This document shows, one piece after another, positions 1 to 46,660 of a DNA stretch of 46,660 nucleotides. The notes under the pieces were generated by a model, which worked only from the letters and a program-made list of their open reading frames with translations, had not been told where the DNA came from and searched no databases. This DNA is from a virus (lineage: Duplodnaviria; Caudoviricetes), in IMG/VR virus record IMGVR_UViG_3300047555_000001, positions 1 to 46,660 of that record. One strand, 5' to 3'. Position numbers and translations under genes: made by a program. Each line of letters starts with the position of its first letter. Positions within the stretch are counted from its first letter, which is position 1.

Positions 1-181
1 CTTTATTATCTATAGCTCCGAAGCACCATAAAGTGTCTGCAAGGTCGTTCGACTCTAATACGCTTGAGAGTGGGAACGGCGTATCCATTCCTAAATGCTC
101 ATGGGCCTTGAGTACCTTCTTCCACCCGCCAGTACCCAGTTGCGCTTTACGGATTTGATTTAATGTAATATATACGGTCAT
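1..181 (-). CDS. 5' part of triplicated Ala-rich protein, copy A (continues at window end 46297-46660)
   Basis: ATG at 181; reads MTVYITLNQIRKAQLGTGGWKKVLK..., near-identical to 6262-6786 and 23730-24341. Confidence 0.85.
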   Translation of the reverse strand, partial: MTVYITLNQIRKAQLGTGGWKKVLKAHEHLGMDTPFPLSSVLESNDLADTLWCFGAIDNK

Positions 182-212
182 TTTGCTTTCTCTCTGTTTG
201 GTTGATGGAATG

Positions 213-241
213 ACTATAAATCACTTTGACGGACTGGTCAA
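213..241 (-). promoter_or_regulatory. sigma70-type promoter with TTGAC-N6-GTCAA palindrome
   Basis: TTGACC(241-236)-17 bp-TATAGT(218-213); palindrome 226-241. Confidence 0.8.
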
Positions 242-2377
242 CAGTGGTAACACTAATTTTTCAGCTTCTGCGATGTACCAATCATAATTTAATTCTGACC
301 AGTTGAAATCATCAGCATTGGCACACTCTGTAACGCGCCAGCCAGCGCATAGCGATGTCTCAGTAGAATGACCGTGCTTAGTCCCCTTTTTATTGTGAAT
401 ACGGTCGTCCCAAGGCACACCAGCCGCATCCACGTTGTCACCGCCTGTTCCTTGTATTTCTCTAATTACAGCTTGATAAAAATCATCAGTTAATTTGTTT
501 TTTCTTTTAAACGTCCCCGGTTGCCCTTTTGGTTGAGAAACTTTAATAAATTGGCACCCATTTCGACTGATAAAATACCGTGTGATGCTTTGAGTTTGCA
601 CTTCTGTTTCGAATTCAGGCCAACGTTTTATTATTTTGCATGATTTGTCAACTTTAGCCCTGCACATAAAATCAAAAGGGTCACGGTGCGACGTAATGAA
701 TGACCGGATGTCGATACCATGAACCAACGCCGCCTCTGCCGCTTTAGGTACGACCAACGCGGAAGGGTCTTTATTATACGGAACCTCGCGTGTTGCTGGG
801 TTCTCGTCTGATCTGACATACGCGTAAGCGCCGATGCGTTTTATATTTTTGGGGTTTTTAACAGCCAGGTATGAATTTACATCACGTATGCACATCTTTT
901 CATATGTGACATCTTCTAATTCCAACTTTGTTACAGACTCCCACCATCTAAACAGAGTGTTCGCATGGTCTACATACTGATGAGGGCATTTGAACGTAAT
1001 GCCATCAGTATTAGCTTGTATTAATTTTAACCCCGGTATTTCTACCAACTTCTCAGCCAACATACACAGTAGTAATTGCCCGTTGATAGTTGTGGACATA
1101 GTGTACTGCGGGTCTAAAAATGGAGAGTGTGCATTATTAGACCCGCCATACGCGCCATTCAACGCTAGTTTGAAAGCCCCATTCTCAGGTGCGGTTTTAG
1201 GATATTGTTTACGAGTTTGATAAACCCCATCATAGGCGTCACAAAACGCTTCACCTAAATGGGCCGGATAAATACGGTTCGCTATGGCAAAGTTAGGATA
1301 AAAACTAGCGACATCAGCGTCTATAATCACACCTTCTTCATCACTTACGATTATTTCATTTTTTACAGACGCGTGCATCCCACCTTTACCAAACGCAAAC
1401 TCAATACCACCGATAACAGGTAGGTTGAGACCCTCAAAAGATCCTTTCGTTTCTTTTATTGACTGAGTTTTCAAGAAGGATAAAACCCTGTCAAATTCAG
1501 GATTAGTGAAATTTATAAAAGGTAATACGAAATCTGATATTTTTATTTCATTTCGTATCGTTTGTTTTTTTACATTTCGGCCACCTACTACTTCGTAGCA
1601 GTTAATGCCTCTTTTTTTCATTTCAATAACAAGGATGGTTTCACCCATTTTCACATCTGACATGTTAATGAAATTTCTTTTAAACGTTTTTGACAACTCT
1701 TCACGCAACTTAATAGCTGTCAATGACCTCACATAAAATTTTAAAGTTTCTCTAGTGTCCCTGCGGTTGTAAACTATCAATTCGTCTCGTTCAGCATCGT
1801 TAAGTATTTTGGCATGGTGAAATGGCAGGTCTTGGACAATGTGAGACCGCATCATTATCTCAAGTGCTTTTAAGCTAGTCGCCTTTGAGACGTTATCAAA
1901 ATGCCATATTTTATATAAATCTATTTGTTTGAATATTTGGTCATCGTCCCATACAGTAGGTGCGTACTGACCAAATGGTACAATTTGTTTCTGTGCTTTA
2001 TCATATACTTGGTCAACTGTGCAACTTGGATTGTGAGCTATCCAATGCAATACAGGATAATCGAACGATAAGTTATTAAACCCTACCCCACGCGCTCCAG
2101 ATTTACCAAGTGAGAAAATAAATTCAGATAGCGCGATACCGTCATGCTTTCTATCTGATATTTCGAACTCTTGAATTAAACCGGTAGCAGCGTGAATAAA
2201 ACACACTGTGAAAGTATTCTTGATTGTCTCAATATCATAACCCCAATCACGTACATCGAGTGGTGCAGGAGTTGAGAAAGCGGCAACTGCCCCACAGTGG
2301 GGGCAGTTGTGCAAATCAGATGGATAAGTCTTACCGCAACCCGCCATAGGGTCACACTGGGATAGGAAGTGTGTCAT
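221..2377 (-). CDS. family B DNA polymerase with 3'-5' exonuclease domain
   Basis: Exo motifs DIET, GFNNLSFD; polymerase motifs DVASFYP, KLALNGAYG, NTDG. Confidence 0.9.
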   Translation of the reverse strand: MTHFLSQCDPMAGCGKTYPSDLHNCPHCGAVAAFSTPAPLDVRDWGYDIETIKNTFTVCFIHAATGLIQEFEISDRKHDGIALSEFIFSLGKSGARGVGFNNLSFDYPVLHWIAHNPSCTVDQVYDKAQKQIVPFGQYAPTVWDDDQIFKQIDLYKIWHFDNVSKATSLKALEIMMRSHIVQDLPFHHAKILNDAERDELIVYNRRDTRETLKFYVRSLTAIKLREELSKTFKRNFINMSDVKMGETILVIEMKKRGINCYEVVGGRNVKKQTIRNEIKISDFVLPFINFTNPEFDRVLSFLKTQSIKETKGSFEGLNLPVIGGIEFAFGKGGMHASVKNEIIVSDEEGVIIDADVASFYPNFAIANRIYPAHLGEAFCDAYDGVYQTRKQYPKTAPENGAFKLALNGAYGGSNNAHSPFLDPQYTMSTTINGQLLLCMLAEKLVEIPGLKLIQANTDGITFKCPHQYVDHANTLFRWWESVTKLELEDVTYEKMCIRDVNSYLAVKNPKNIKRIGAYAYVRSDENPATREVPYNKDPSALVVPKAAEAALVHGIDIRSFITSHRDPFDFMCRAKVDKSCKIIKRWPEFETEVQTQSITRYFISRNGCQFIKVSQPKGQPGTFKRKNKLTDDFYQAVIREIQGTGGDNVDAAGVPWDDRIHNKKGTKHGHSTETSLCAGWRVTECANADDFNWSELNYDWYIAEAEKLVLPLLTSPSK

Positions 2378-2399
2378 ATCATTCTCTCTGTGTTAAATA

Positions 2400-3809: not shown

Positions 3810-3851
3810 AATTATGTTCCTTTTATCTCTGTGTTTGTGGTTGACGAGGTA

Positions 3852-6019: not shown

Positions 6020-6265
6020 TATTTGTATTCCTTATCTGCGTTATAAATTTTAGAACGGTAAGTTGATTTTTTAATCTCACCGTCAATCTGTTCATCTTCT
6101 TGGGGATAACTGCCAGTTGGTACTGTTTCGATTGGTAGTTATCCCCAAGGTGTCATCGGCGCTATGAATACCGTGGACAGTACCAAATACGTTTCGATAT
6201 TGCATACCATCCGGCGCGGTAAACCAGTTGTCTGTAGTAATCAAATATTCAACATTCAGTTTCAT
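6019..6265 (-). pseudogene. frameshifted small gene
   Basis: 57-aa ORF 6265-6092 (ATGA-coupled to copy B); second frame EQIDGEIKKSTYRSKIYNADKEYK* ends in TAATG overlap at 6019; inverted repeat at the break. Confidence 0.55.
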
Positions 6266-6786
6266 GACAACATCTCTTTCAGTTTAACAACCTGTGCTTG
6301 TCGAGCATCAGAAGCAGAAGCAGCATAAGCAGCATAAGCAGCATAAGCAGCATAATCAGCAGCATCATAAGCAGCATCATAAGCATCAGAAGCAGCATCA
6401 GCAGCATGATAAGTAGCAGCATCATAAGCATCAGCAGCAGCATAAGCAGCATGATAAGTAGCAGCATAAGCAGCACGTCTGGCAGCGATTAATTCATCTT
6501 TCGTAGCTTTACCGTCTAAATACTGTTCGACTACATCAAGCGCCTTCTTACTGTCTTCGGTTTCCACTTGGCGAGCACACCAGAGAGCGAAACGTTGAGG
6601 GATTTCTTTATTATCTATAGCTCCGAAGCACCATAAAGTGTCTGCAAGGTCGTTCGACTCTAATACGCTTGAGAGTGGGAACGGCGTATCCATTCCTAAA
6701 TGCTCATGGGCCTTGAGTACCTTCTTCCATCCGTCAGTACACGGTTGCGCTTTGCGGATTTGATTTAATGTAATATATACGGTCAT
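6262..6786 (-). CDS. triplicated Ala-rich protein, copy B
   Basis: 174 aa; constant N-terminus, A/Y/D/T/H/S tract near C-terminus. Confidence 0.9.
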   Translation of the reverse strand: MTVYITLNQIRKAQPCTDGWKKVLKAHEHLGMDTPFPLSSVLESNDLADTLWCFGAIDNKEIPQRFALWCARQVETEDSKKALDVVEQYLDGKATKDELIAARRAAYAATYHAAYAAADAYDAATYHAADAASDAYDAAYDAADYAAYAAYAAYAASASDARQAQVVKLKEMLS

Positions 6787-6851
6787 TTTGCTTTCTCTCT
6801 GTTTGGTTGATGGAATGACTATAAATCACTTTGACGGACTGGTCAACACTT
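6486..6851. repeat. 366-bp direct repeat (constant gene part + leader + promoter)
   Basis: Identical by eye to 24041-24406; near-identical to 46551-46660 + 1-243. Confidence 0.9.
6818..6846 (-). promoter_or_regulatory. palindrome-containing promoter
   Basis: TTGACC-17-TATAGT; palindrome 6831-6846. Confidence 0.8.
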
Positions 6852-8738: not shown

Positions 8739-9002
8739 TACCTGTAACTCAATTTACCCTGAATACAGGGTAGCGTCAGGGGTGCTGTAAGTGTATGATT
8801 TCACACTGTAAAGTAGCGTTACCTGAAATACCCCGCGATTTCTCTACCTATTCACGGCTGGCGGTGTATATCCCCTACCATATTATCTCTATAGTAATTT
8901 CTTTTATAAGGGGTATTAAGGTAAATAGTGTATAGAGTAAATAAAACAGTCACTTACAATACCTGAAAAATTACCCTGTATGGTGTATTGTTCGGGGTTA
9001 TT
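8739..9002. repeat. noncoding direct repeat copy 1 (origin-like)
   Basis: Near-identical to 32185-32488 except central 11 vs 51 nt; many TACC(C) motifs in both orientations. Confidence 0.9.
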
Positions 9003-12595: not shown

Positions 12596-14056
12596 ATGTC
12601 GTCAGTTTTAACACAATTTCTCATCGGGATCGGCTGGCAGACCGATGATTTCAATAAGGGCGAACGCGAAATTAATCGCGGCCTTGAAAACGTCAAAACA
12701 AAAGTTACTGTAACTGGTGCTGCTATGGTGGGCGCTTTTATTGGTGTGGGGAACCAGGTGGCGGATGTTGCTCATAAGGTTAACAGTATGTCTCTAAATA
12801 CCAACACTTTGAACGCCAGTACACGATTCGTCAACAACTATGGGTTAGCCTTGCGTGGCCTCGGTGGTGATGCTGGTGACGCCGTAGGAGAAATCAAAGG
12901 GGCTGAATCAGCATTAATGGATTTACGTCTCAAAGGCGAGGCTGGGCCATTTGGTGGTGCATTGCAATTAGCAGGGGTAAGCGTTGACCCGTTGATGGTG
13001 GCTGAATCGGGCGCTGAGTTCATGCAAGAAATTGCTAAACAAATGCCGTCGCTAACAAAAGAACAACGATTATCAGTTCAACAAATCCTCAATCTTTCAC
13101 CAGCCGGTGTCGAACTATTAGCTAAAGGTGAAGCAGAATATAAAAAGATCCTAAACCATGTGAATGCGGTCGCTGGGTTAACCCCTGAATTGATTTCAAA
13201 CAGTAAAGAATTAAACGCTGCATTAGCGGAGACAGAATTGAGATGGGAGGGTATAAAAAACACAATTGCTCTCGGTATAATGCCGCGAATGACCGAAATG
13301 ATAAAAGCCAGTAACGAATGGGTTACCGATACCATTAAACCATTGGCTGAGAAAAGCCCCGTCAGCACTGCCGTAGGTGGTACAATGATAGGTGCTGGGG
13401 TAGGTGCTGGCGCTGCCGCCCCATTACTTGGTGCTGTAGGTGCAACAGGTGTGGGTGCTGCCGCTGGCGCTGCCGCTGCCCCTTTGGTTATATTGGGTGC
13501 AGGTGCTGTAGCATTCAATATGGACCAGAAAGATGTCAAAAACACCACTGGATTAGATTTACCAGAATGGATGTTTAAACCGATCGGCGAGCTGATCGAT
13601 GATAGCGGAATGAAGCCGGTTGCCAATCCTTACGGACGTGGTATATACAATCCCACAATAGAAAGTTTTTCAGCTCCTGACGCAGAAAAAGCATACGAAG
13701 GTGGTATATACAATCCCACAATAGGAAGTTTTTCAGCTCCTGATGTCGAAAAAGCATACGAAGGTGGTATATATAATCCCACAATAGGAAGTTTTTCAGC
13801 TCCTGACGCAGAAAAAGCATATGAAGGTAGCGGGTATGAGGACATCAAATCAGCATTTAGTAAAATATTTAGTACAGAATCACTCGCACCTACTCAAAAA
13901 GTAGAAGTGCAGTTGAAGTCATCAAATCTACCTCCTATTCAGAATAATATTACTGTAGAATTAGACGGTAGAACATTTGAACATAAAGTGATGGAAATTA
14001 ACGACAGACAAGCGCAAGGTGCGCAAGATGATTTGATGTCCACAACGGCGAGGTAA
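12596..14056 (+). CDS. tape measure protein
   Basis: Position; helical Ala/Gly-rich sequence; FLIGIGW start. Confidence 0.8.
   Translation: MSSVLTQFLIGIGWQTDDFNKGEREINRGLENVKTKVTVTGAAMVGAFIGVGNQVADVAHKVNSMSLNTNTLNASTRFVNNYGLALRGLGGDAGDAVGEIKGAESALMDLRLKGEAGPFGGALQLAGVSVDPLMVAESGAEFMQEIAKQMPSLTKEQRLSVQQILNLSPAGVELLAKGEAEYKKILNHVNAVAGLTPELISNSKELNAALAETELRWEGIKNTIALGIMPRMTEMIKASNEWVTDTIKPLAEKSPVSTAVGGTMIGAGVGAGAAAPLLGAVGATGVGAAAGAAAAPLVILGAGAVAFNMDQKDVKNTTGLDLPEWMFKPIGELIDDSGMKPVANPYGRGIYNPTIESFSAPDAEKAYEGGIYNPTIGSFSAPDVEKAYEGGIYNPTIGSFSAPDAEKAYEGSGYEDIKSAFSKIFSTESLAPTQKVEVQLKSSNLPPIQNNITVELDGRTFEHKVMEINDRQAQGAQDDLMSTTAR
13640..13828 (+). repeat. 3 x 63-bp in-frame tandem repeat
   Basis: GIYNPTI(E/G)SFSAPD(A/V)EKAYEG at 13640, 13703, 13766. 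Confidence 0.95.
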
Positions 14057-15010: not shown

Positions 15011-16428
15011 TGACAACACGCCGCCTATGGAGCATGGATATCAACGGTAGCCCTTTCATTCTTCCATCAGACAACCGCCAATTTAGAGTTACTTTTGATG
15101 TCATTGTAACCCCCGCTGAAACACTGAGTTTCGCTGATATCCGATTGTATAACCTTGCAAAAACGACTGAGATTACACAGAAAAAGTCTATTACTTTCCG
15201 CGCCGGTTTCACAAATGCAGTTGATACTATTTTCAGCGGCTACGTGACAAACGTATACCGCGAACGTGAGGGGGCGAGCGTAGTCACTCGTCTACTGTGT
15301 AAATCAGGTGATGCTCGTGAGGATAGAAACACCATAAATTCATCATACGGGCCTGGGGTTATGTTGGTTGATATATTAAAAGATCTGGCCCAGTCATGGC
15401 CGCGCCGATTAAATATTGATGAGTCTCAGTTTAACGATGTGGCACCTTTCAGTAGTGGGTATGTAGCGAATGGTGATATACCCACAATTCTTAATAAGTT
15501 AAAATACGCGTTTAATTTCGAATGGGTTCAAGATAGAGGGCAGATTGTCGTAACTCGCATTGATAAAAAACGCAACGGTGTCATATCGGAAGTTTCACAG
15601 TTTACCGGTATGATTGGTATACCGGAAGTTGCAGATGGGCCTAACGGTATAACTGTATTTGTGAGTCATACCCTCAACCCTTACTTCCGTATCAATGGTC
15701 GTATCAATGTTAAATCTGAATTTAGTACATTCAACACAGGTAACATGTTCGTCTCTGAAATGTCTGGCGATGCAAAGGCGTCTGGCGAGTATAACATATT
15801 CGCGTTGCGACACCGTGGGGATAGCTGGGGCAATCAATGGGTCAGTGAAATAGATGGTAAACGCGCGGGTACGACAACACGTACAGTAAGTACGGGTGCG
15901 TTAGTATGGGGCGGGGGTGCTAATGTTGACCAGGCTTTCCGTGCGAAGGTGCGGGAAATCGCAGAACGTTTGGGGTTCGACCCTAATTGGTTGATGGCTA
16001 TTATGGCATTTGAAACAGGTCGCACCTTCCTTCCTTCACAAAAGAATATAGGAGGTAGCGGGGCTACTGGTTTGATTCAATTCATGCCAGCCACAGCCAA
16101 AGGATTGAAACCACCAACCACAACAGCAAAGCTTGCTCGAATGACAGCGGTTGAACAATTGGACTACGTGGAGGCATATTTTCGACCTACTAAGTCACGC
16201 GTTCGTAATTTAGGGGATTGTTATATAACGGTATTAGCTGGCCCTAATTCTAGCGCAATAGGTCGCCCCGATAGTTACATAGTGTGGAGAGAGGGATCGC
16301 GTGAATATAATTCAAATAGAAACTTGGACGGTATAGACAAAACCCCAGTCAAAGGATACATAACCAGAGGTGACATGGTATACATGGTGAATAGGGAAAT
16401 GATAAGTGGTCAACAATTCGCTAAATAA
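15010..16428 (+). CDS. baseplate hub fused to lytic transglycosylase-like domain
   Basis: Hub motifs IRLYNL, TGMIGIPE, HRGDSWG; C-terminal AIMAFETG...ATGLIQFMP. Confidence 0.75.
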   Translation: MTTRRLWSMDINGSPFILPSDNRQFRVTFDVIVTPAETLSFADIRLYNLAKTTEITQKKSITFRAGFTNAVDTIFSGYVTNVYREREGASVVTRLLCKSGDAREDRNTINSSYGPGVMLVDILKDLAQSWPRRLNIDESQFNDVAPFSSGYVANGDIPTILNKLKYAFNFEWVQDRGQIVVTRIDKKRNGVISEVSQFTGMIGIPEVADGPNGITVFVSHTLNPYFRINGRINVKSEFSTFNTGNMFVSEMSGDAKASGEYNIFALRHRGDSWGNQWVSEIDGKRAGTTTRTVSTGALVWGGGANVDQAFRAKVREIAERLGFDPNWLMAIMAFETGRTFLPSQKNIGGSGATGLIQFMPATAKGLKPPTTTAKLARMTAVEQLDYVEAYFRPTKSRVRNLGDCYITVLAGPNSSAIGRPDSYIVWREGSREYNSNRNLDGIDKTPVKGYITRGDMVYMVNREMISGQQFAK

Positions 16429-16439
16429 AAAAAGCCCCA

Positions 16440-16817
16440 TTAAGGGGCTTCATTCATCTTCAGGAATACAATCATTGCAGCGCGAAGTGGGTTTGAGTCA
16501 TCGTGATAGTGAGTCGGGTTATTATCCCAACACCAGCACCCTTCAATCATGACCCCACCAACGTGTGCGCACCATGATTTTTCAGTTTCACTCCAATTAA
16601 GGCTGATTTTATTCTCAATAATGATGGGCCATGTTTCGTCTGGATTGTTGCAATAATCCGGCAAATAGCTAGTTTCATCCTCGATATCTCGATGAATAAG
16701 ATCATCGGTCATCAAAGTTAAATTACCTTCAATTTGTCTGTCTTGTTCAGGATGTTCCGAGCAAAGATAGACTTGAAAATTTATTTCAGGGTCAGTCATC
16801 TCGATATAGGATTCCAC
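16440..16817 (-). CDS. NinX-like protein
   Basis: DYCNNP..WPIIIENKISL...NPLRAAMIVFL. Confidence 0.7.
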   Translation of the reverse strand: MESYIEMTDPEINFQVYLCSEHPEQDRQIEGNLTLMTDDLIHRDIEDETSYLPDYCNNPDETWPIIIENKISLNWSETEKSWCAHVGGVMIEGCWCWDNNPTHYHDDSNPLRAAMIVFLKMNEAP

Positions 16818-16847
16818 TGTATTTCCTCTGTGTTGGTTGATGCACTT

Positions 16848-16876
16848 AATATATCAACCGTTGACGGACTAGTCAA
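16848..16876 (-). promoter_or_regulatory. palindrome-containing promoter
   Basis: TTGACT-17-TATATT; palindrome 16861-16876. Confidence 0.8.
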
Positions 16877-16891
16877 TGCTTTTATGCAAAT

Positions 16892-16998
16892 AAAAAAAAG
16901 CCCTCCGAAGAGGGCTACAACCTACACAGAGAGGATGATACAGTTTACATAGAGCAAAGCTGTAATAGTGTTACTACGACTCGTAGCATCTTTGCTCT
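16892..16998 (-). ncRNA. candidate trans-acting small RNA (~107 nt)
   Basis: Own promoter, 5' stem, unpaired anti-RBS segment, AGCCCTC-TTCG-GAGGGCT + T-run terminator; no convincing ORF. Confidence 0.6.
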
Positions 16999-17011
16999 AT
17001 GTAAACTGTAT
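16938..17011. repeat. perfect 22-bp inverted repeat
   Basis: ATACAGTTTACATAGAGCAAAG (16938-16959) / CTTTGCTCTATGTAAACTGTAT (16990-17011). Confidence 0.95.
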
Positions 17012-17033
17012 TGCAATTTGACGTGACTGTCAA
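17005..17033 (-). promoter_or_regulatory. palindrome-containing promoter of candidate sRNA
   Basis: TTGACA(17033-17028)-17-TACAGT(17010-17005); palindrome 17018-17033. Confidence 0.75.
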
Positions 17034-17066
17034 CACGTAAAACGTTAATATGTCGATAGAGGTGAT

Positions 17067-17753
17067 TTGATGATTAATAACTCAAATGTATACAGGGCAG
17101 CACATAGAGAACTATCAAAAGATACTTACACTTCCATACCGGGACATGTGCTTGCTTTCGATCCTAAATTACAGCGCGCTCAAATTCAGATAGGCATCAT
17201 CCGTGTGGATGTCAACGGTGCTGAGTTTAACCCTCCGCCGATTGTAGATGTACCAGTGCAGTTCCCCGGTGATGGTTTCTGTATGGAATTCCAGATAGAC
17301 CCAAACTGCGAGGGTATAGTGCATTTCAGCCAACGGTGTATAGATGCGTGGAAGAGTACAGGCGGTATCGCTAATAATCCTATCGGTCGCTTCCATGATA
17401 TGCAGGATGCCATGTTTGTGCCGGGTGTACGCTCTCAAGGTAATGTGATACAAGGTTTCAGTAATAACGGCGTGAAACTACGTAACAAAGCCGGTACACA
17501 ATATGCCTGGTTAAAGAATGACGGTTCAATAGACCTTAATAACGGTAGCGGTCATGTTACAATTGGTGCGGATGGTATAGTCAATATCAATGGTGTAATA
17601 TTCGATACATTGGGTAACGTCACCACGCCTACCATTGTTAAAGCTAAAACAGTTACAGCTACCGATTCATTAACTGTGAAAGGTAAAGAAATGAATGAGC
17701 ATGTTCACAGTGGTGTAACAACGGGTACAGGTAACACGGGGAAACCGGTATGA
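17067..17753 (+). CDS. baseplate spike (Gp138-like)
   Basis: TSIPGHVLAFDP, FSQRCIDAW, RFHDMQDA, C-terminal HVHSGV. Confidence 0.85.
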   Translation: MMINNSNVYRAAHRELSKDTYTSIPGHVLAFDPKLQRAQIQIGIIRVDVNGAEFNPPPIVDVPVQFPGDGFCMEFQIDPNCEGIVHFSQRCIDAWKSTGGIANNPIGRFHDMQDAMFVPGVRSQGNVIQGFSNNGVKLRNKAGTQYAWLKNDGSIDLNNGSGHVTIGADGIVNINGVIFDTLGNVTTPTIVKAKTVTATDSLTVKGKEMNEHVHSGVTTGTGNTGKPV

Positions 17754-20840: not shown

Positions 20841-21242
20841 ATGAGATATTCGTCAAGCGCATCTGGGTTTTACCCAGAAGATATTGATTATGGCAGCAAT
20901 TCACCTAATGATCTGGTAACTATATCCCATGACCTTTACTTATCCCTGCTTGAAGGGCAGTCATCAGGCAAGGTCATAACAGCAGGAGATGACGGTATGC
21001 CATTCCTGGCCGATCCGCCAGCCCCGACTGCCGCCGAACTAGTTACGGCGGCAGAGAGAAAAAAAGTGTCGATATTACAAAGTATCAATGCAAAGACACA
21101 AATATGGCAGACTCAACTTGTGCTTGGAATGATTAGCGATATAGATAAAGCGACCCTAATCATCTGGATGAAGTACGCGCAAGCTATCTGCGCTATAGAC
21201 GCAAGTACTGCGCCAGATATTGAATGGCCTATAGCCCCCTAG
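20841..21242 (+). CDS. tail fiber assembly protein
   Basis: GFY, LLEGQSSGKVI, APDIEWP. Confidence 0.85.
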   Translation: MRYSSSASGFYPEDIDYGSNSPNDLVTISHDLYLSLLEGQSSGKVITAGDDGMPFLADPPAPTAAELVTAAERKKVSILQSINAKTQIWQTQLVLGMISDIDKATLIIWMKYAQAICAIDASTAPDIEWPIAP

Positions 21243-23391: not shown

Positions 23392-23733
23392 TCACTTCAC
23401 CTCTTTGCAGTTGTCCATGTACGCCCAAGTATCACCCGTATTGTTACTGAACTGGTATGTCCCTTCGCGTTTAATGAAAATGGTGTTACCCATTATAGAA
23501 CGCTGAATACCGGGTTTAATTGTCATCAGCATTGGCACAACTTGGTCGTTGTAAATCAATTGAAAACGTGAACCATTATCCGATATGAGAACCGGCTCTG
23601 ACGCGGTATCAAGTGTCTTAGTTGGTTCGCCATCTATCGCTGCAATCACATAACCCTGACATACTTTAGTGAATACTTTTGCATGTGCTGGTAATGCGGC
23701 GGCAACAAGCGCCAGTACTATAATACGTTTCAT
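23392..23733 (-). CDS. exported protein with signal peptide
   Basis: MKRIIVLALVAAALPAHA; ATGA-coupled to copy C. Confidence 0.7.
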   Translation of the reverse strand: MKRIIVLALVAAALPAHAKVFTKVCQGYVIAAIDGEPTKTLDTASEPVLISDNGSRFQLIYNDQVVPMLMTIKPGIQRSIMGNTIFIKREGTYQFSNNTGDTWAYMDNCKEVK

Positions 23734-24341
23734 GATAACATTTCTTTCAGTTTAGCAACCTGAGCCTGTCGAGCAGCATCAGCAGCAGCACAAGCAGCAT
23801 CAGCAGCAGCAGCATAATCAGCACGTCTGGCAGCATAAGCAGCACATCTGGCAGCATCAGCAGCACGTCTGGCAGCATAATCAGCACAAACAGCACAAGC
23901 AGCATCAACAGCAGCATAATCAGCAGCATCAACAGCATAATCAACAGCAGCACAAGCAGCACAAGCAGCACAAGCAGCATCAGCAGCATCAGCAGCAGCA
24001 TCAGCAGCATAAGCAGCATAATCAACAGCACGGCTGGTAACGATTAATTCATCTTTCGTAGCTTTACCGTCTAAATACTGTTCGACTACATCAAGCGCCT
24101 TCTTACTGTCTTCGGTTTCCACTTGGCGAGCACACCAGAGAGCGAAACGTTGAGGGATTTCTTTATTATCTATAGCTCCGAAGCACCATAAAGTGTCTGC
24201 AAGGTCGTTCGACTCTAATACGCTTGAGAGTGGGAACGGCGTATCCATTCCTAAATGCTCATGGGCCTTGAGTACCTTCTTCCATCCGTCAGTACACGGT
24301 TGCGCTTTGCGGATTTGATTTAATGTAATATATACGGTCAT
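23730..24341 (-). CDS. triplicated Ala-rich protein, copy C
   Basis: 203 aa; A/D/Y/C/V/R tract. Confidence 0.9.
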   Translation of the reverse strand: MTVYITLNQIRKAQPCTDGWKKVLKAHEHLGMDTPFPLSSVLESNDLADTLWCFGAIDNKEIPQRFALWCARQVETEDSKKALDVVEQYLDGKATKDELIVTSRAVDYAAYAADAAADAADAACAACAACAAVDYAVDAADYAAVDAACAVCADYAARRAADAARCAAYAARRADYAAAADAACAAADAARQAQVAKLKEMLS

Positions 24342-24372
24342 TTTGCTTTCTCTCTGTTTGGTTGATGGAATG

Positions 24373-24445
24373 ACTATAAATCACTTTGACGGACTGGTCA
24401 ACACTTAATTATCAAGTTGACGGACTGGTCAACATCGTATAGGCT
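24373..24445. promoter_or_regulatory. back-to-back palindrome promoters
   Basis: Palindromes 24386-24401 (minus TTGACC-17-TATAGT) and 24417-24432 (plus TTGACG-17-TAGGCT). Confidence 0.75.
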
Positions 24446-28083: not shown

Positions 28084-28386
28084 ATGAATCGATATAAACA
28101 AATGAACAAGGCATCACGCGATAAAATTGTTAACGCTGCTTTCACAATGGCGGTGGAAGATGGGTTATTAAGTATTCGTCGTAACACAGTGGCCGAACGA
28201 GCCGGTATCGCGCACAGCTTAGTAACATATTATTTCAATATGAATGAATTACGCGACGCTATTATCCAACGTGCTATCGAATGTGAGCAAGTCGATATTT
28301 TGGCGCAAGGGTTGGCATTGAGTAACAGCGTAGCTGTGGCGGCACCTGCCAAACTAAAGAGTAAAGCACTCGCTACATTGTTGTAA
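28084..28386 (+). CDS. TetR-like HTH regulator
   Basis: RDKIVNAA...G....RNTVAERAGIAHSLVTYYF..NEL. Confidence 0.8.
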   Translation: MNRYKQMNKASRDKIVNAAFTMAVEDGLLSIRRNTVAERAGIAHSLVTYYFNMNELRDAIIQRAIECEQVDILAQGLALSNSVAVAAPAKLKSKALATLL

Positions 28387-28411
28387 CCGTCAACACAGAG
28401 AGAATAACAAC

Positions 28412-32184: not shown

Positions 32185-32488
32185 TACCTGTAACTCAATT
32201 TACCCTGAATACAGGGTAGCGTCAGGGGTGCTGTAAGTGTATGATTTCACACTGTAAAGTAGAGTTACCTGAAATACCCCGCGATTTCTTTACCTATTCA
32301 CGGCTGGCGTCTCGCGGGTGTGACGTGTACACACGTGGGTGCTGCGACAGTCTCTTATAGCTACCATATTATCTCTATAGTAATTTCTTTTATAAGGGGT
32401 ATTAAGGTAAATAGTATATAGAGTAAATAAAACAGTCACTTACGATACCTCAAAATTTACCCTGTACGGTGTATTGTTCGGGGTTATT
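32185..32488. repeat. noncoding direct repeat copy 2 (origin-like)
   Basis: Matches 8739-9002; GC-rich 51-nt centre 32310-32360. Confidence 0.9.
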
Positions 32489-45725: not shown

Positions 45726-46271
45726 TCACGCCTCTGGTGGTGTTGGTACGCCGATCATATTGTTCAAGTCGGTTATCTGTACAGTGGGTAGATTGATAAC
45801 AGGTTTTTCAATTTCGGACGGTATCAATTCCGCCCAAACGTTCACTCGAACCGTTTCTCTTATTTCTTTACGTTTCTCTTTCTTATTGTGAATGTTATCA
45901 AACATGTCAGATAATGGGTTATCAGCGAGAATGACATACCGATTACATCCGTTATTATATGGGAAAATTACTTCATCCTCGAAACCCCAATTGACAGATT
46001 TACCTGCGATATTTAATTGGACAATCGAATCCGTATTAATATGGTCGCAATCTTTACGTATCAAAAAGTCTTCGGGGATTACTGATATAAATTTAGCAAA
46101 CTGTTTTTTCAGTTTGGTCAACTCTTAAATCTTATCACCGGTAGCGAATTTAATTAATTCAGCGCTGAACGCATTTCCCAATGCTTTAATTTCTTCATTT
46201 TGTACAACAGTTGCTTTTTCTATAGCTTTATTGACAATCTGGGTGCGAATTGTATTTGTAAGACGTGTCAT
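45726..46271 (-). pseudogene. Nmad5-like gene interrupted by in-frame TAA
   Basis: ATG 46271 (MTRLTNTIRTQIVNKAIEKA) in frame with ORF 45726-46121; TAA at 46127-46125. Confidence 0.6.
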
Positions 46272-46296
46272 AATTTGCTTTCTCTCTGTGTTTAAA

Positions 46297-46660
46297 TTAA
46301 ATGTCTAACATCTCTTTCAGTTTAGCAATTTGAGCCTTTCGAGCAGCAGCATAAGCAGCATAAGCAGCATAAGCATCAGCAGCATCAGCAGCATCAGCAG
46401 CATCAGCAGCATAAGCAGCATAAGCAGCAGCAGCAGCATCAGCAGCATAAGCAGCAGCAGCATCAGCATCATAAGCAGCATCAGCAGCATCAGCAGCAGC
46501 AGCACAAGCAGCATAAGCAGCATAAGCACCAGCAGCAGCACGTCTGGCAGCGATTAATTCATCTTTCGTAGCTTTACCGTCTAAATACTGTTCGACTACA
46601 TCAAGCGCCTTCTTACTGTCTTCGGTTTCCACTTGGCGAGCACACCAGAGAGCGAAACGT
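46297..46660 (-). CDS. 3' part of triplicated Ala-rich protein, copy A
   Basis: RFALWCARQVETEDSKKALD...A/Y/D tract...KLKEMLDI. Confidence 0.85.
   Translation of the reverse strand, partial: RFALWCARQVETEDSKKALDVVEQYLDGKATKDELIAARRAAAGAYAAYAACAAAADAADAAYDADAAAAYAADAAAAAYAAYAADAADAADAADAYAAYAAYAAARKAQIAKLKEMLDI

What the first reader, a model, noticed from the sequence alone, without database searches (positions are those of the whole stretch)
16892..17033. Candidate phage sRNA antisense to the ribosome-binding leaders of replication and early genes
Seen: a minus-strand TTGACA-17-TACAGT promoter points into an apparently noncoding ~107-nt unit that ends in a UUCG-loop terminator with a U-run. 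The predicted RNA has a 5' stem (AGAGCAAAG/CUUUGCUCU) and then an unpaired stretch UAUCAUCCUCUCUGUGUAGGUUG. This stretch is complementary at 16/17 nt to the polymerase leader including the A of its AUG (2377-2393). It also matches the primase leader (28393-28402, 10 nt), the Nmad5-like leader (46282-46291, 10 nt), the NinX leader (16826-16839, 13/14), the SSB leader (3827-3834, 8 nt) and the three repeat-gene leaders (CTCTCTGT + GGTTG). Known: antisense RNAs that occlude an RBS repress translation (e.g. P22 sar). Inference: one trans-acting sRNA could shut off a dispersed ACACAGAGAG-leader regulon, either as an early-to-late switch or against superinfecting relatives.
Basis: partly seen in the sequence, partly recalled or inferred. 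Interest (0 to 1): 0.85.

Follow-up and report, generated by a model that had tools for sequence, protein, structure and literature searches.

The report
Phage small RNA targeting replication leaders
A family of bacterial viruses carries a short non-coding unit whose sequence matches, and changes in step with, the ribosome-binding regions of each virus's own polymerase, primase and other early genes, so it is likely made into a small RNA that would turn down production of the replication proteins.

Summary
The minus-strand unit (early-type promoter 17033-17005, about 107 nt, terminator 16916-16892) is complementary over at least 8 nt to 9 of 77 called leaders (shuffles 1.1, p=0.002): 8 of 46 non-late, 1 of 31 late. 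The same promoter-seed-terminator unit lies antisense upstream of the baseplate spike gene in relatives (MSW-3, KpV52, PEAT2, KsaM-C1, IMG/VR phages); in several it is about 50 nt, just seed plus terminator. Across 10 lineages each seed fits its own polymerase, primase and SSB leader better than foreign ones (permutation p 3e-5, 2e-5, 0.009); helicase and four structural leaders show no such fit. This holds without the window. The 5' stem is not conserved, the seed is partly folded, and four AAM22-like phages lack a matching 3' seed. Best reading: a trans-acting, multi-target phage sRNA that likely blocks translation of replication and early genes, made from an early-type promoter, so more a feedback brake than a late switch. 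Transcription, pairing and repression are untested. No Rfam family; no paper found.

The parts
17018..17033 (.). TTGAC-N6-GTCAA palindrome; holds the -35 box (TTGACA, 17033-17028, minus) of the sRNA promoter; its 6-bp core may be the -35 of a divergent plus-strand promoter
   Evidence: same element upstream of the spike gene in relatives
17005..17010 (-). -10 box TACAGT, 17-bp spacing; predicted +1 near 16998
   Evidence: start site inferred from spacing
16892..16998 (-). predicted sRNA, about 107 nt; longest ATG-started ORF 14 codons
16951..16998 (-). variable 5' domain: 9-bp outer stem (16998-16990/16959-16951) with inner hairpin 16988-16972; not conserved
16938..17011 (.). perfect 22-bp inverted repeat (16938-16959/16990-17011) with a 30-bp spacer; likely a lineage-specific template-switch product
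   Evidence: same form in run X3, other form in X5, X6, X7
16917..16948 (-). seed region, core 16924-16940, complementary to early and replication leaders; loop CUCUGUGU exposed
16892..16916 (-). intrinsic terminator: 7-bp stem, UUCG loop, U-run
17023..17051 (+). predicted divergent promoter toward the spike gene (GTGACT-17-TAATAT), overlapping the sRNA promoter
   Evidence: same spacing in 12 of 16 genomes listed; inference
2377..2393 (-). predicted target: DNA polymerase leader and start codon; best predicted interaction, -19.3 kcal/mol
28393..28402 (+). predicted target: primase leader
3826..3834 (-). predicted target: SSB leader
16815..16839 (-). predicted target: NinX leader (PF10765); pairing predicted up to the GTG
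46282..46291 (-). predicted target: leader of an Nmad5-like gene (46271-45726, one in-frame stop)
6795..6809 (-). predicted target: leader of repeat gene 6262-6786
24350..24364 (-). predicted target: leader of repeat gene 23730-24341
190..204 (-). predicted target: leader of the third repeat gene, which crosses the window ends and so was not among the 77 called genes
17067..17753 (+). baseplate spike gene, the synteny anchor
28084..28386 (+). small protein with a TetR-like N-terminal HTH; candidate binder of the promoter palindromes (untested)
   Evidence: best E 7e-4; no Pfam hit

Best explanation
The unit is likely transcribed from an early-type host-polymerase promoter into a small RNA whose seed, just before the terminator, is complementary to the A/C-rich stretch and Shine-Dalgarno region of the phage's own polymerase, primase, SSB and other early leaders and is predicted to pair with them in trans and lower their translation. 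Shown by sequence and comparison: promoter family, terminator, conserved position, complementarity, preference for non-late genes, lineage-by-lineage covariation. Inferred: that the RNA is made, that pairing represses, that Hfq may help (U-tail), and the purpose. The promoter is of the same type as those of its targets, so the RNA would build up with time and genome copy number and act as a delayed brake on replication-protein synthesis. The long forms in Jedunavirus-like phages would carry the same seed at their 3' end.
For: Window: 9 of 77 leaders with at least 8-nt complement versus 1.08 in 2000 shuffles (p=0.002); 8 of 46 non-late, 1 of 31 late; 0.0001 of all other 32-nt windows not overlapping a leader score as high. 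With accessibility, 16 of 46 non-late and 2 of 31 late leaders reach -10 kcal/mol or better, polymerase first. Synteny: promoter and terminator called in 16 of 22 genomes and 16 of 62 further non-duplicate loci, 3 of them genomes already seen; in G001/G002, G003, MSW-3 and PVN06 the transcript is about 45-60 nt, seed plus terminator. Covariation over 10 lineages: polymerase p=3e-5 (longest match) and 2e-5 (energy), primase 2e-5 and 7e-4, SSB (9 lineages) 0.009 and 0.0009; helicase, capsid, sheath, portal, wedge 0.14-0.85. Without the window, exact permutations: polymerase 2/5040 and 1/5040, primase 1/5040 and 6/5040, SSB 2/720 and 1/720 (first set). In G011/G012 the polymerase leader has a different sequence (GTCACCAC) and their seed matches it over 8 nt. 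The unit's pre-terminator segment ranks first among such segments in 16 of 17 genomes outside the AAM22 group where its terminator was called (one tied); none of 203 other segments reaches 7. Host proxy: 1 of 172 E. coli leaders.
Against: No transcript or repression data. The per-genome shuffle test reaches p<0.05 in only 6 of 13 genomes (not G001, G002, G003, G005, G006, G007, KpV52) and 4 of 6 (not G014, G017; one of G012's four hits overlaps the unit itself). By top-6 duplex energy the own-genome z is strong for the window (-5.5), MSW-3 (-4.5), G005 and G001 (-2.7) but 0 for G004 and G006, and the window seed also scores -1.5 to -3.6 on all 13 other genomes, a generic anti-SD component. AAM22, G008, G009 and G010 keep promoter and terminator but their 3' segment matches 0, 0, 0 and 2 leaders. 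No excess of G-U-compatible mismatches beside the matches (38:23 versus 310:155, p=0.57), so RNA pairing was not told apart from plain sequence likeness this way. In G011/G012 the plus-strand copy precedes a 5-7-codon ORF just ahead of the spike gene. Lineages are related, gene starts come from my own simple caller, and one control (portal, longest match, 20/720) was borderline in one of three sets.
Confidence: 0.7

Rival explanations
1. The motif matters on the plus strand or as DNA: a leader-like copy kept alike by recombination between leader cassettes, a ribosome-binding site for a tiny upstream ORF, or a decoy site for a protein that reads these leaders. The minus-strand transcript is incidental.
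For: Each phage has its own leader style, which could give covariation without pairing. In G011/G012 a 5-7-codon ORF follows the plus-strand copy. No G-U excess. The window's early cassettes are repeated at DNA level.
Against: The copy is in the opposite orientation and sits between a minus-strand promoter and a minus-strand terminator in every lineage that has it; in the 50-nt forms nothing else is transcribed. In G001, G002 and KpV52 no ATG/GTG follows the copy, in the window only a 5-codon ORF abutting the GAGG. No RNA-binding protein family was found among 28 mostly unassigned proteins scanned with Pfam.
Confidence: 0.12
2. The RNA is made, but its main job is to block early translation of co-infecting relatives; matches to its own leaders follow from kinship.
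For: The window seed matches 5-8 leaders each in G006, G007, KsaM, KpV52 and PEAT2.
Against: Seeds track their own polymerase and primase leaders better than foreign ones; the window seed matches 0 leaders in MSW-3 and PVN06; a phage could escape its own RNA by changing its leaders, yet these stay matched.
Confidence: 0.07
3. The RNA is a general anti-Shine-Dalgarno or GcvB-like repressor aimed at host mRNAs (host shut-off).
For: The window seed scores below shuffles on every genome tested; the MSW-3 seed matches 6 of 172 E. coli leaders.
Against: 10 of 11 seeds match 0-3 of 172 E. coli leaders (E. coli is only a proxy, the host is unknown); covariation is with phage replication leaders.
Confidence: 0.06
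4. The transcript acts in cis, for example by competing with the overlapping spike promoter or as antisense to read-through late RNA; or pairing stabilises rather than represses the targets.
For: The promoter overlaps a predicted divergent spike promoter; the AAM22 group keeps the transcription unit without a matching 3' seed.
Against: A cis role does not explain covariation with distant leaders; predicted pairing covers the SD region and, for polymerase, the start codon; G020 has a similar unit away from the spike gene.
Confidence: 0.05

Closest known systems
GcvB sRNA of enteric bacteria (PMC3879156, abstract seen)
   Same: Multi-target sRNA that blocks translation by pairing just upstream of the SD with ACA-containing enhancer sequences; the predicted targets here are ACA-rich leaders.
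   Different: Host-encoded, about 200 nt, regulates amino-acid genes. The window scores 14 bits against the GcvB model (gathering 42). Here phage-encoded, pairing extends over the SD, seeds differ by lineage.
c4 antisense RNA of P1/P7 and sar RNA of P22 (PMC12197685, sections 2 and 7 read)
   Same: Phage RNAs that block translation of a phage mRNA by pairing at the ribosome-binding region.
   Different: Described there as acting on the antirepressor mRNA of temperate phages. Here about ten dispersed early and replication leaders, in phages where the window shows no integrase hit; no Rfam match.
PreS of lambda and VpdS of VP882 (10.1101/2024.10.31.621285 passages; review)
   Same: Phage-encoded trans-acting sRNAs with a seed shared by many targets.
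   Different: Temperate phages; PreS targets are mainly host mRNAs and both favour replication. Here the predicted targets are the phage's own replication genes and the predicted effect is repression.
PAK_P3 sRNA1 and sRNA2 (PMC4933390 and PMC10914365 passages)
   Same: Small intergenic RNAs of a virulent phage.
   Different: Late, processed, with no shared leader target set reported; here an own promoter, a terminator and a covarying target set.
Start-associated sequences (SAS/ESAS) of cluster K mycobacteriophages (PMC3203893 section 15 part 1; PMC11373665 passages)
   Same: A conserved RBS-overlapping motif before non-structural genes, upstream inverted repeats, and a single opposite-orientation copy not tied to a gene; function described as unknown.
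   Different: Unrelated temperate phages and motif; the passages read propose no antisense RNA at the reverse copy. In Anaya and Adephagia that copy folds into a hairpin loop; none in the 50 kb of Pixie read.

Membership tests
any Rfam family | score at or above gathering threshold | tested here: not met
   0 hits in the window, 6 loci, 3 genomes; only sub-threshold hits by E-value
trans-acting base-pairing sRNA | own promoter and intrinsic terminator, no conserved ORF | tested here: met
   (sequence level)
trans-acting base-pairing sRNA | accessible seed complementary to translation-initiation regions encoded elsewhere | tested here: met
trans-acting base-pairing sRNA | seed and targets conserved or covarying | tested here: met
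   not in the AAM22 group
trans-acting base-pairing sRNA | G-U-tolerant changes that favour RNA pairing over DNA identity | tested here: inconclusive
   p=0.57
trans-acting base-pairing sRNA | transcript detected and target expression changed | not testable with these tools
   needs infection RNA data and reporter assays
Hfq-dependent sRNA | binds Hfq through a 3' U-tail | not testable with these tools
   U-run present; binding untested
cis-encoded antisense RNA (sar/OOP type) | encoded opposite its target | tested here: not met
   predicted targets lie elsewhere; overlap with the spike upstream region only in G011/G012
GcvB (RF00022) | covariance-model match | tested here: not met
   14.1 bits versus 42
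tRNA | ARAGORN call in the units | tested here: not met
   0 of 18 units

The most novel reading that the evidence does not exclude
Phages without a repressor-based cycle use one small RNA as a copy-number-sensing brake on their whole replication regulon, with the seed rewritten in each lineage to follow its leaders. The same design (one reversed copy of a leader motif shown in an RNA loop) has arisen separately in cluster K mycobacteriophages and is what their start-associated sequences are for.
Probability: 0.25. Interest if true: 0.9.

Novelty: new variant of a known kind. Interest (0 to 1): 0.78.

Why it matters
The phage sRNAs with known targets in the papers read come from temperate phages and act on one phage mRNA or mainly on host mRNAs; those reported from virulent phages lack assigned targets. 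This would be a family-wide sRNA controlling the phage's own polymerase, primase and SSB, with compensating changes visible across lineages. It can be tested in cultured phages (KpV52, PEAT2, MSW-3, KsaM-C1). It also gives a concrete, testable idea for the unexplained start-associated sequences of cluster K mycobacteriophages.

Tried and rejected
Expression: no RNA holder listed; runs X8 and X9 laid nothing. BLASTN of the unit against 50,697 phage records gave only short terminator-type matches, so the family is seen by synteny, not similarity. A promoter-plus-seed pattern found 0 stretches in viral contigs. Of 30 promoter-pattern hits, 18 had no spike gene in the locus and were set aside. A MAFFT alignment of 13 seed regions was unusable because several of my coordinates were off; no covariance model was built. 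The G-U test was negative. Coding role rejected: a 14-codon ORF only, in the part that differs in relatives. A functional 22-bp stem in the RNA rejected: half of the 5' arm lies upstream of the predicted start and relatives lack the long arm. A CsrA-type decoy (motif recalled) rejected: the G001 copy has no GGA. No matching seed stood out along the units of the AAM22 group or Vibrio phage 138 (at most 3 leaders per 20-nt window). High-scoring pre-terminator segments in V120 and PLPE lie in or at gene ends and were not accepted. Earlier findings: 4 look-ups, nothing. Literature: 10 searches listed no paper on this unit; most subscription journals are not in the library, and the review's supplementary table of 38 undescribed phage sRNAs was not read. 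Searches gave no usable result and were redone.

Full report
Setting. The window is a 46.7-kb myovirus genome with polymerase, SSB, primase, helicase, head and contractile-tail genes; no integrase was listed among 75 ORFs scanned. Its spike gene is closest to Pantoea phage AAM22 and Klebsiella Jedunavirus-like phages; by a tail-sheath tree it groups with G001, MSW-3/PVN06 and G011/G012. Early cassettes lie between late genes on the opposite strand. The unit sits between the NinX cassette and the baseplate spike gene.

Observation. The promoter is 1 of 12 perfect TTGAC-N6-GTCAA palindromes (0.03 expected). In this and related genomes such promoters are mostly followed by a start codon after 40-60 nt; this one is not. 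The fold has the 9-bp 5' stem; the seed forms a weak hairpin with CUCUGUGU in the loop. Run X3, from another study, has the window's sequence over 16849-17093 without a difference. Runs X5, X6 and X7 have the loop in the other orientation; X6 and X7 also show a shorter 3' arm and one change in the seed, and X6 has about 56 extra letters. I infer that the long repeat is a recent template-switch product and that the 5' domain is free to vary.

More than chance in the window. I called genes with a simple script whose start choice does not use the seed. The 32 nt before the terminator complement at least 8 nt in 9 of 77 leaders (-25 to +3), against 1.08 for 2000 dinucleotide shuffles (p=0.002); 8 of 46 are non-late and 1 of 31 late. 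To control for picking this region after the fact, I scored every 32-nt window on both strands: a fraction 0.0001 of those not overlapping a leader scores as high. With opening energies, polymerase ranks first (-19.3 kcal/mol, covering SD and start), then NinX; 16 of 46 non-late and 2 of 31 late leaders reach -10. The same seed matches 1 of 172 called E. coli leaders, a proxy host.

Conservation. BLASTN finds no homologue, but synteny does. Of 22 genomes, 16 had a TTGAC promoter and a called terminator antisense upstream of the spike gene; G008 has both but its terminator was placed by motif; Vibrio phage 138 has the promoter only; PLPE, V120 and YZU01 have none and BcepB1A gave no spike hit. 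Of 62 further non-duplicate loci 16 had the unit, 3 being genomes already seen; two more (G011, G012) have an extended -10 promoter, seen by eye; most of the rest have none. The unit is about 45-60 nt in G001/G002, G003, MSW-3, PVN06 and similar loci, and 220-770 nt in KpV52, PEAT2, KsaM-C1 and G004-G007, where the pyrimidine/GU-rich segment stays directly before the terminator and is the peak or near-peak of leader complementarity.

Covariation. Seeds were defined by position alone (up to 32 nt before the terminator). For 10 lineage representatives I compared each seed with the orthologous leader of every phage and permuted the pairings. Polymerase: own matches 10,7,8,8,4,8,9,8,5,8 nt versus 5.3 for foreign pairs, p=3e-5; energy p=2e-5. 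Primase p=2e-5 and 7e-4. SSB (9 lineages) p=0.009 and 0.0009. Helicase, capsid, sheath, portal and wedge p=0.14-0.85. Exact permutations on two sets without the window gave polymerase 2/5040 and 1/5040 by match, primase 1/5040 and 4/720, SSB 2/720 and 65/720; by energy all six were 11/720 or less; one control value was 20/720. Examples of primase leader motifs matched by the own seed: ACACAGAGAG (window), ACAAGAGAGAA (G001), ACACGGAGAG (G004), CACAACAGGA (MSW-3). In MSW-3 and KpV52, where the polymerase leader itself does not match, the matching leader belongs to a small ORF that abuts the polymerase start, which suggests translational coupling (inference). Among pre-terminator segments the unit ranks first in 16 of 17 genomes outside the AAM22 group where its terminator was called (G014 tied; the partial G002 second; MSW-3 and PVN06 not called). 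G020 lacks the unit at the spike gene but has a similar short one elsewhere that matches its primase leader and the gene before polymerase; this was found after the fact.

Results against. Single-genome shuffle tests pass p<0.05 in 6 of 13 and 4 of 6 genomes. Top-6 duplex energies favour the own genome clearly only for the window, MSW-3 and G005; G004 and G006 score z=0, and the window seed pairs better than shuffles with all genomes, so part of it is a generic anti-SD. The AAM22 group (4 genomes) keeps a long structured unit without a matching 3' seed. There is no excess of G-U-compatible mismatches. In G011/G012 the plus-strand copy could serve a tiny ORF ahead of the spike gene. The pooled count of 63 of 607 non-late versus 1 of 277 late leaders comes from related genomes and is not a set of independent trials. 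Two leaders overlapping their own unit (G004, G006) were dropped before counting.

Mechanism. Shown: architecture, position, complementarity, target class, covariation. Inferred: an RNA from an early-type sigma-70 promoter; loop-initiated pairing over the ACA-rich stretch and SD; lower translation, by analogy with GcvB, which silences ACA enhancers upstream of the SD (PMC3879156, abstract). The promoter type argues against a late-made switch; the palindrome core also fits the -35 of a divergent promoter toward the spike gene in 12 of 16 genomes listed, and a TetR-like HTH protein is a candidate binder. The simplest role is a brake that grows with time and genome copies, easing the hand-over to late synthesis. 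Blocking of relatives may be a side effect, since the window seed matches 5-8 leaders in five Jedunavirus-like genomes.

Known systems. No Rfam family. It works like a GcvB-type multi-target sRNA and like c4/sar in blocking a phage RBS, but is a member of neither. In the texts read, c4 and sar act on antirepressor mRNA (PMC12197685 sections 2 and 7), PreS mainly on host mRNAs (bioRxiv 2024.10.31.621285, passages), and PAK_P3 sRNAs have no shared target set (PMC4933390, PMC10914365, passages). Ten searches listed no paper on this unit; supplements were not read. A parallel: cluster K mycobacteriophages have an unexplained leader motif with a single reversed copy in four K1 phages (PMC3203893, section 15). 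In 50 kb each of Anaya and Adephagia I found 16 forward copies and 1 reversed, intergenic and predicted in a hairpin loop on the plus strand; Pixie had 18 and 0. This is a lead only.

Verdict. A real, conserved feature and probably a new family of phage trans-acting sRNAs aimed at the phage's own replication and early genes (0.7). New variant of a known kind; interest 0.78, limited by the lack of any expression or functional data.

Noticed in passing
L200:49035-49047 (Anaya) and L201:49036-49048 (Adephagia): The single reversed start-associated sequence of these cluster K1 mycobacteriophages is intergenic and folds so that CCUCCUAUCC lies in a hairpin loop on the plus strand: a candidate antisense RNA to SAS leaders. 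None in the 50 kb of Pixie read.
   Followed up: partly
window 226, 3865, 6831, 8723, 16861, 17018, 24386, 24417, 28025, 30812, 36994, 39116: Family of TTGAC-N6-GTCAA palindromes over the -35 box of early promoters, shared by related phages; candidate operator for the TetR-like HTH protein at 28084-28386.
   Followed up: partly
window 16936-16944: Through the inverted repeat, the plus strand has an extended -10-like TGATACAGT mirroring the sRNA promoter; it could give a convergent transcript in this lineage only.
   Followed up: no
L026:24510-24874 (AAM22), L005-L009, L011, L015, L056, L059, L061: A conserved structured non-coding unit of about 240-340 nt at the same locus without a matching 3' seed; a variable long hairpin is inserted at one site, tRNA-like by eye in AAM22 but not called by ARAGORN. 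No Rfam hit.
   Followed up: partly
G004, G005, KsaM-C1, G017 units; G011 at 21133: A mobile RNA-like cassette with complementary loop motifs (CAGGCTGAT and GATCAGC) and long repeated hairpins in the long units; c4/IsrK-like by recollection only; no Rfam hit.
   Followed up: partly
G020:C1 about 15520-15590, minus strand: A short extended -10/seed/terminator unit away from the spike gene that complements primase and other early leaders.
   Followed up: partly
G011 and G012, upstream of the spike gene: A 5-7-codon ORF follows the plus-strand copy of the leader motif just ahead of the spike gene.
   Followed up: partly
window 45726-46271: Nmad5-like gene with one in-frame stop after codon 48.
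   Followed up: no
window 1-243, 6262-6848, 23730-24403, 46297-46660: Three copies of an early gene with 98% identical promoter and 5' parts and variable Ala-rich repeat tails.
   Followed up: no
window 8739-9002 and 32185-32488; 13631-13828: Two intergenic repeats of about 125 nt (96-98% identical) before the neck and terminase genes; a 63-nt triple repeat inside the tail gene 12596-14056.
   Followed up: no
L073:37907-38186 (Vibrio phage 138): Promoter at the same place followed by about 300 nt of non-coding sequence with no called terminator or seed.
   Followed up: no
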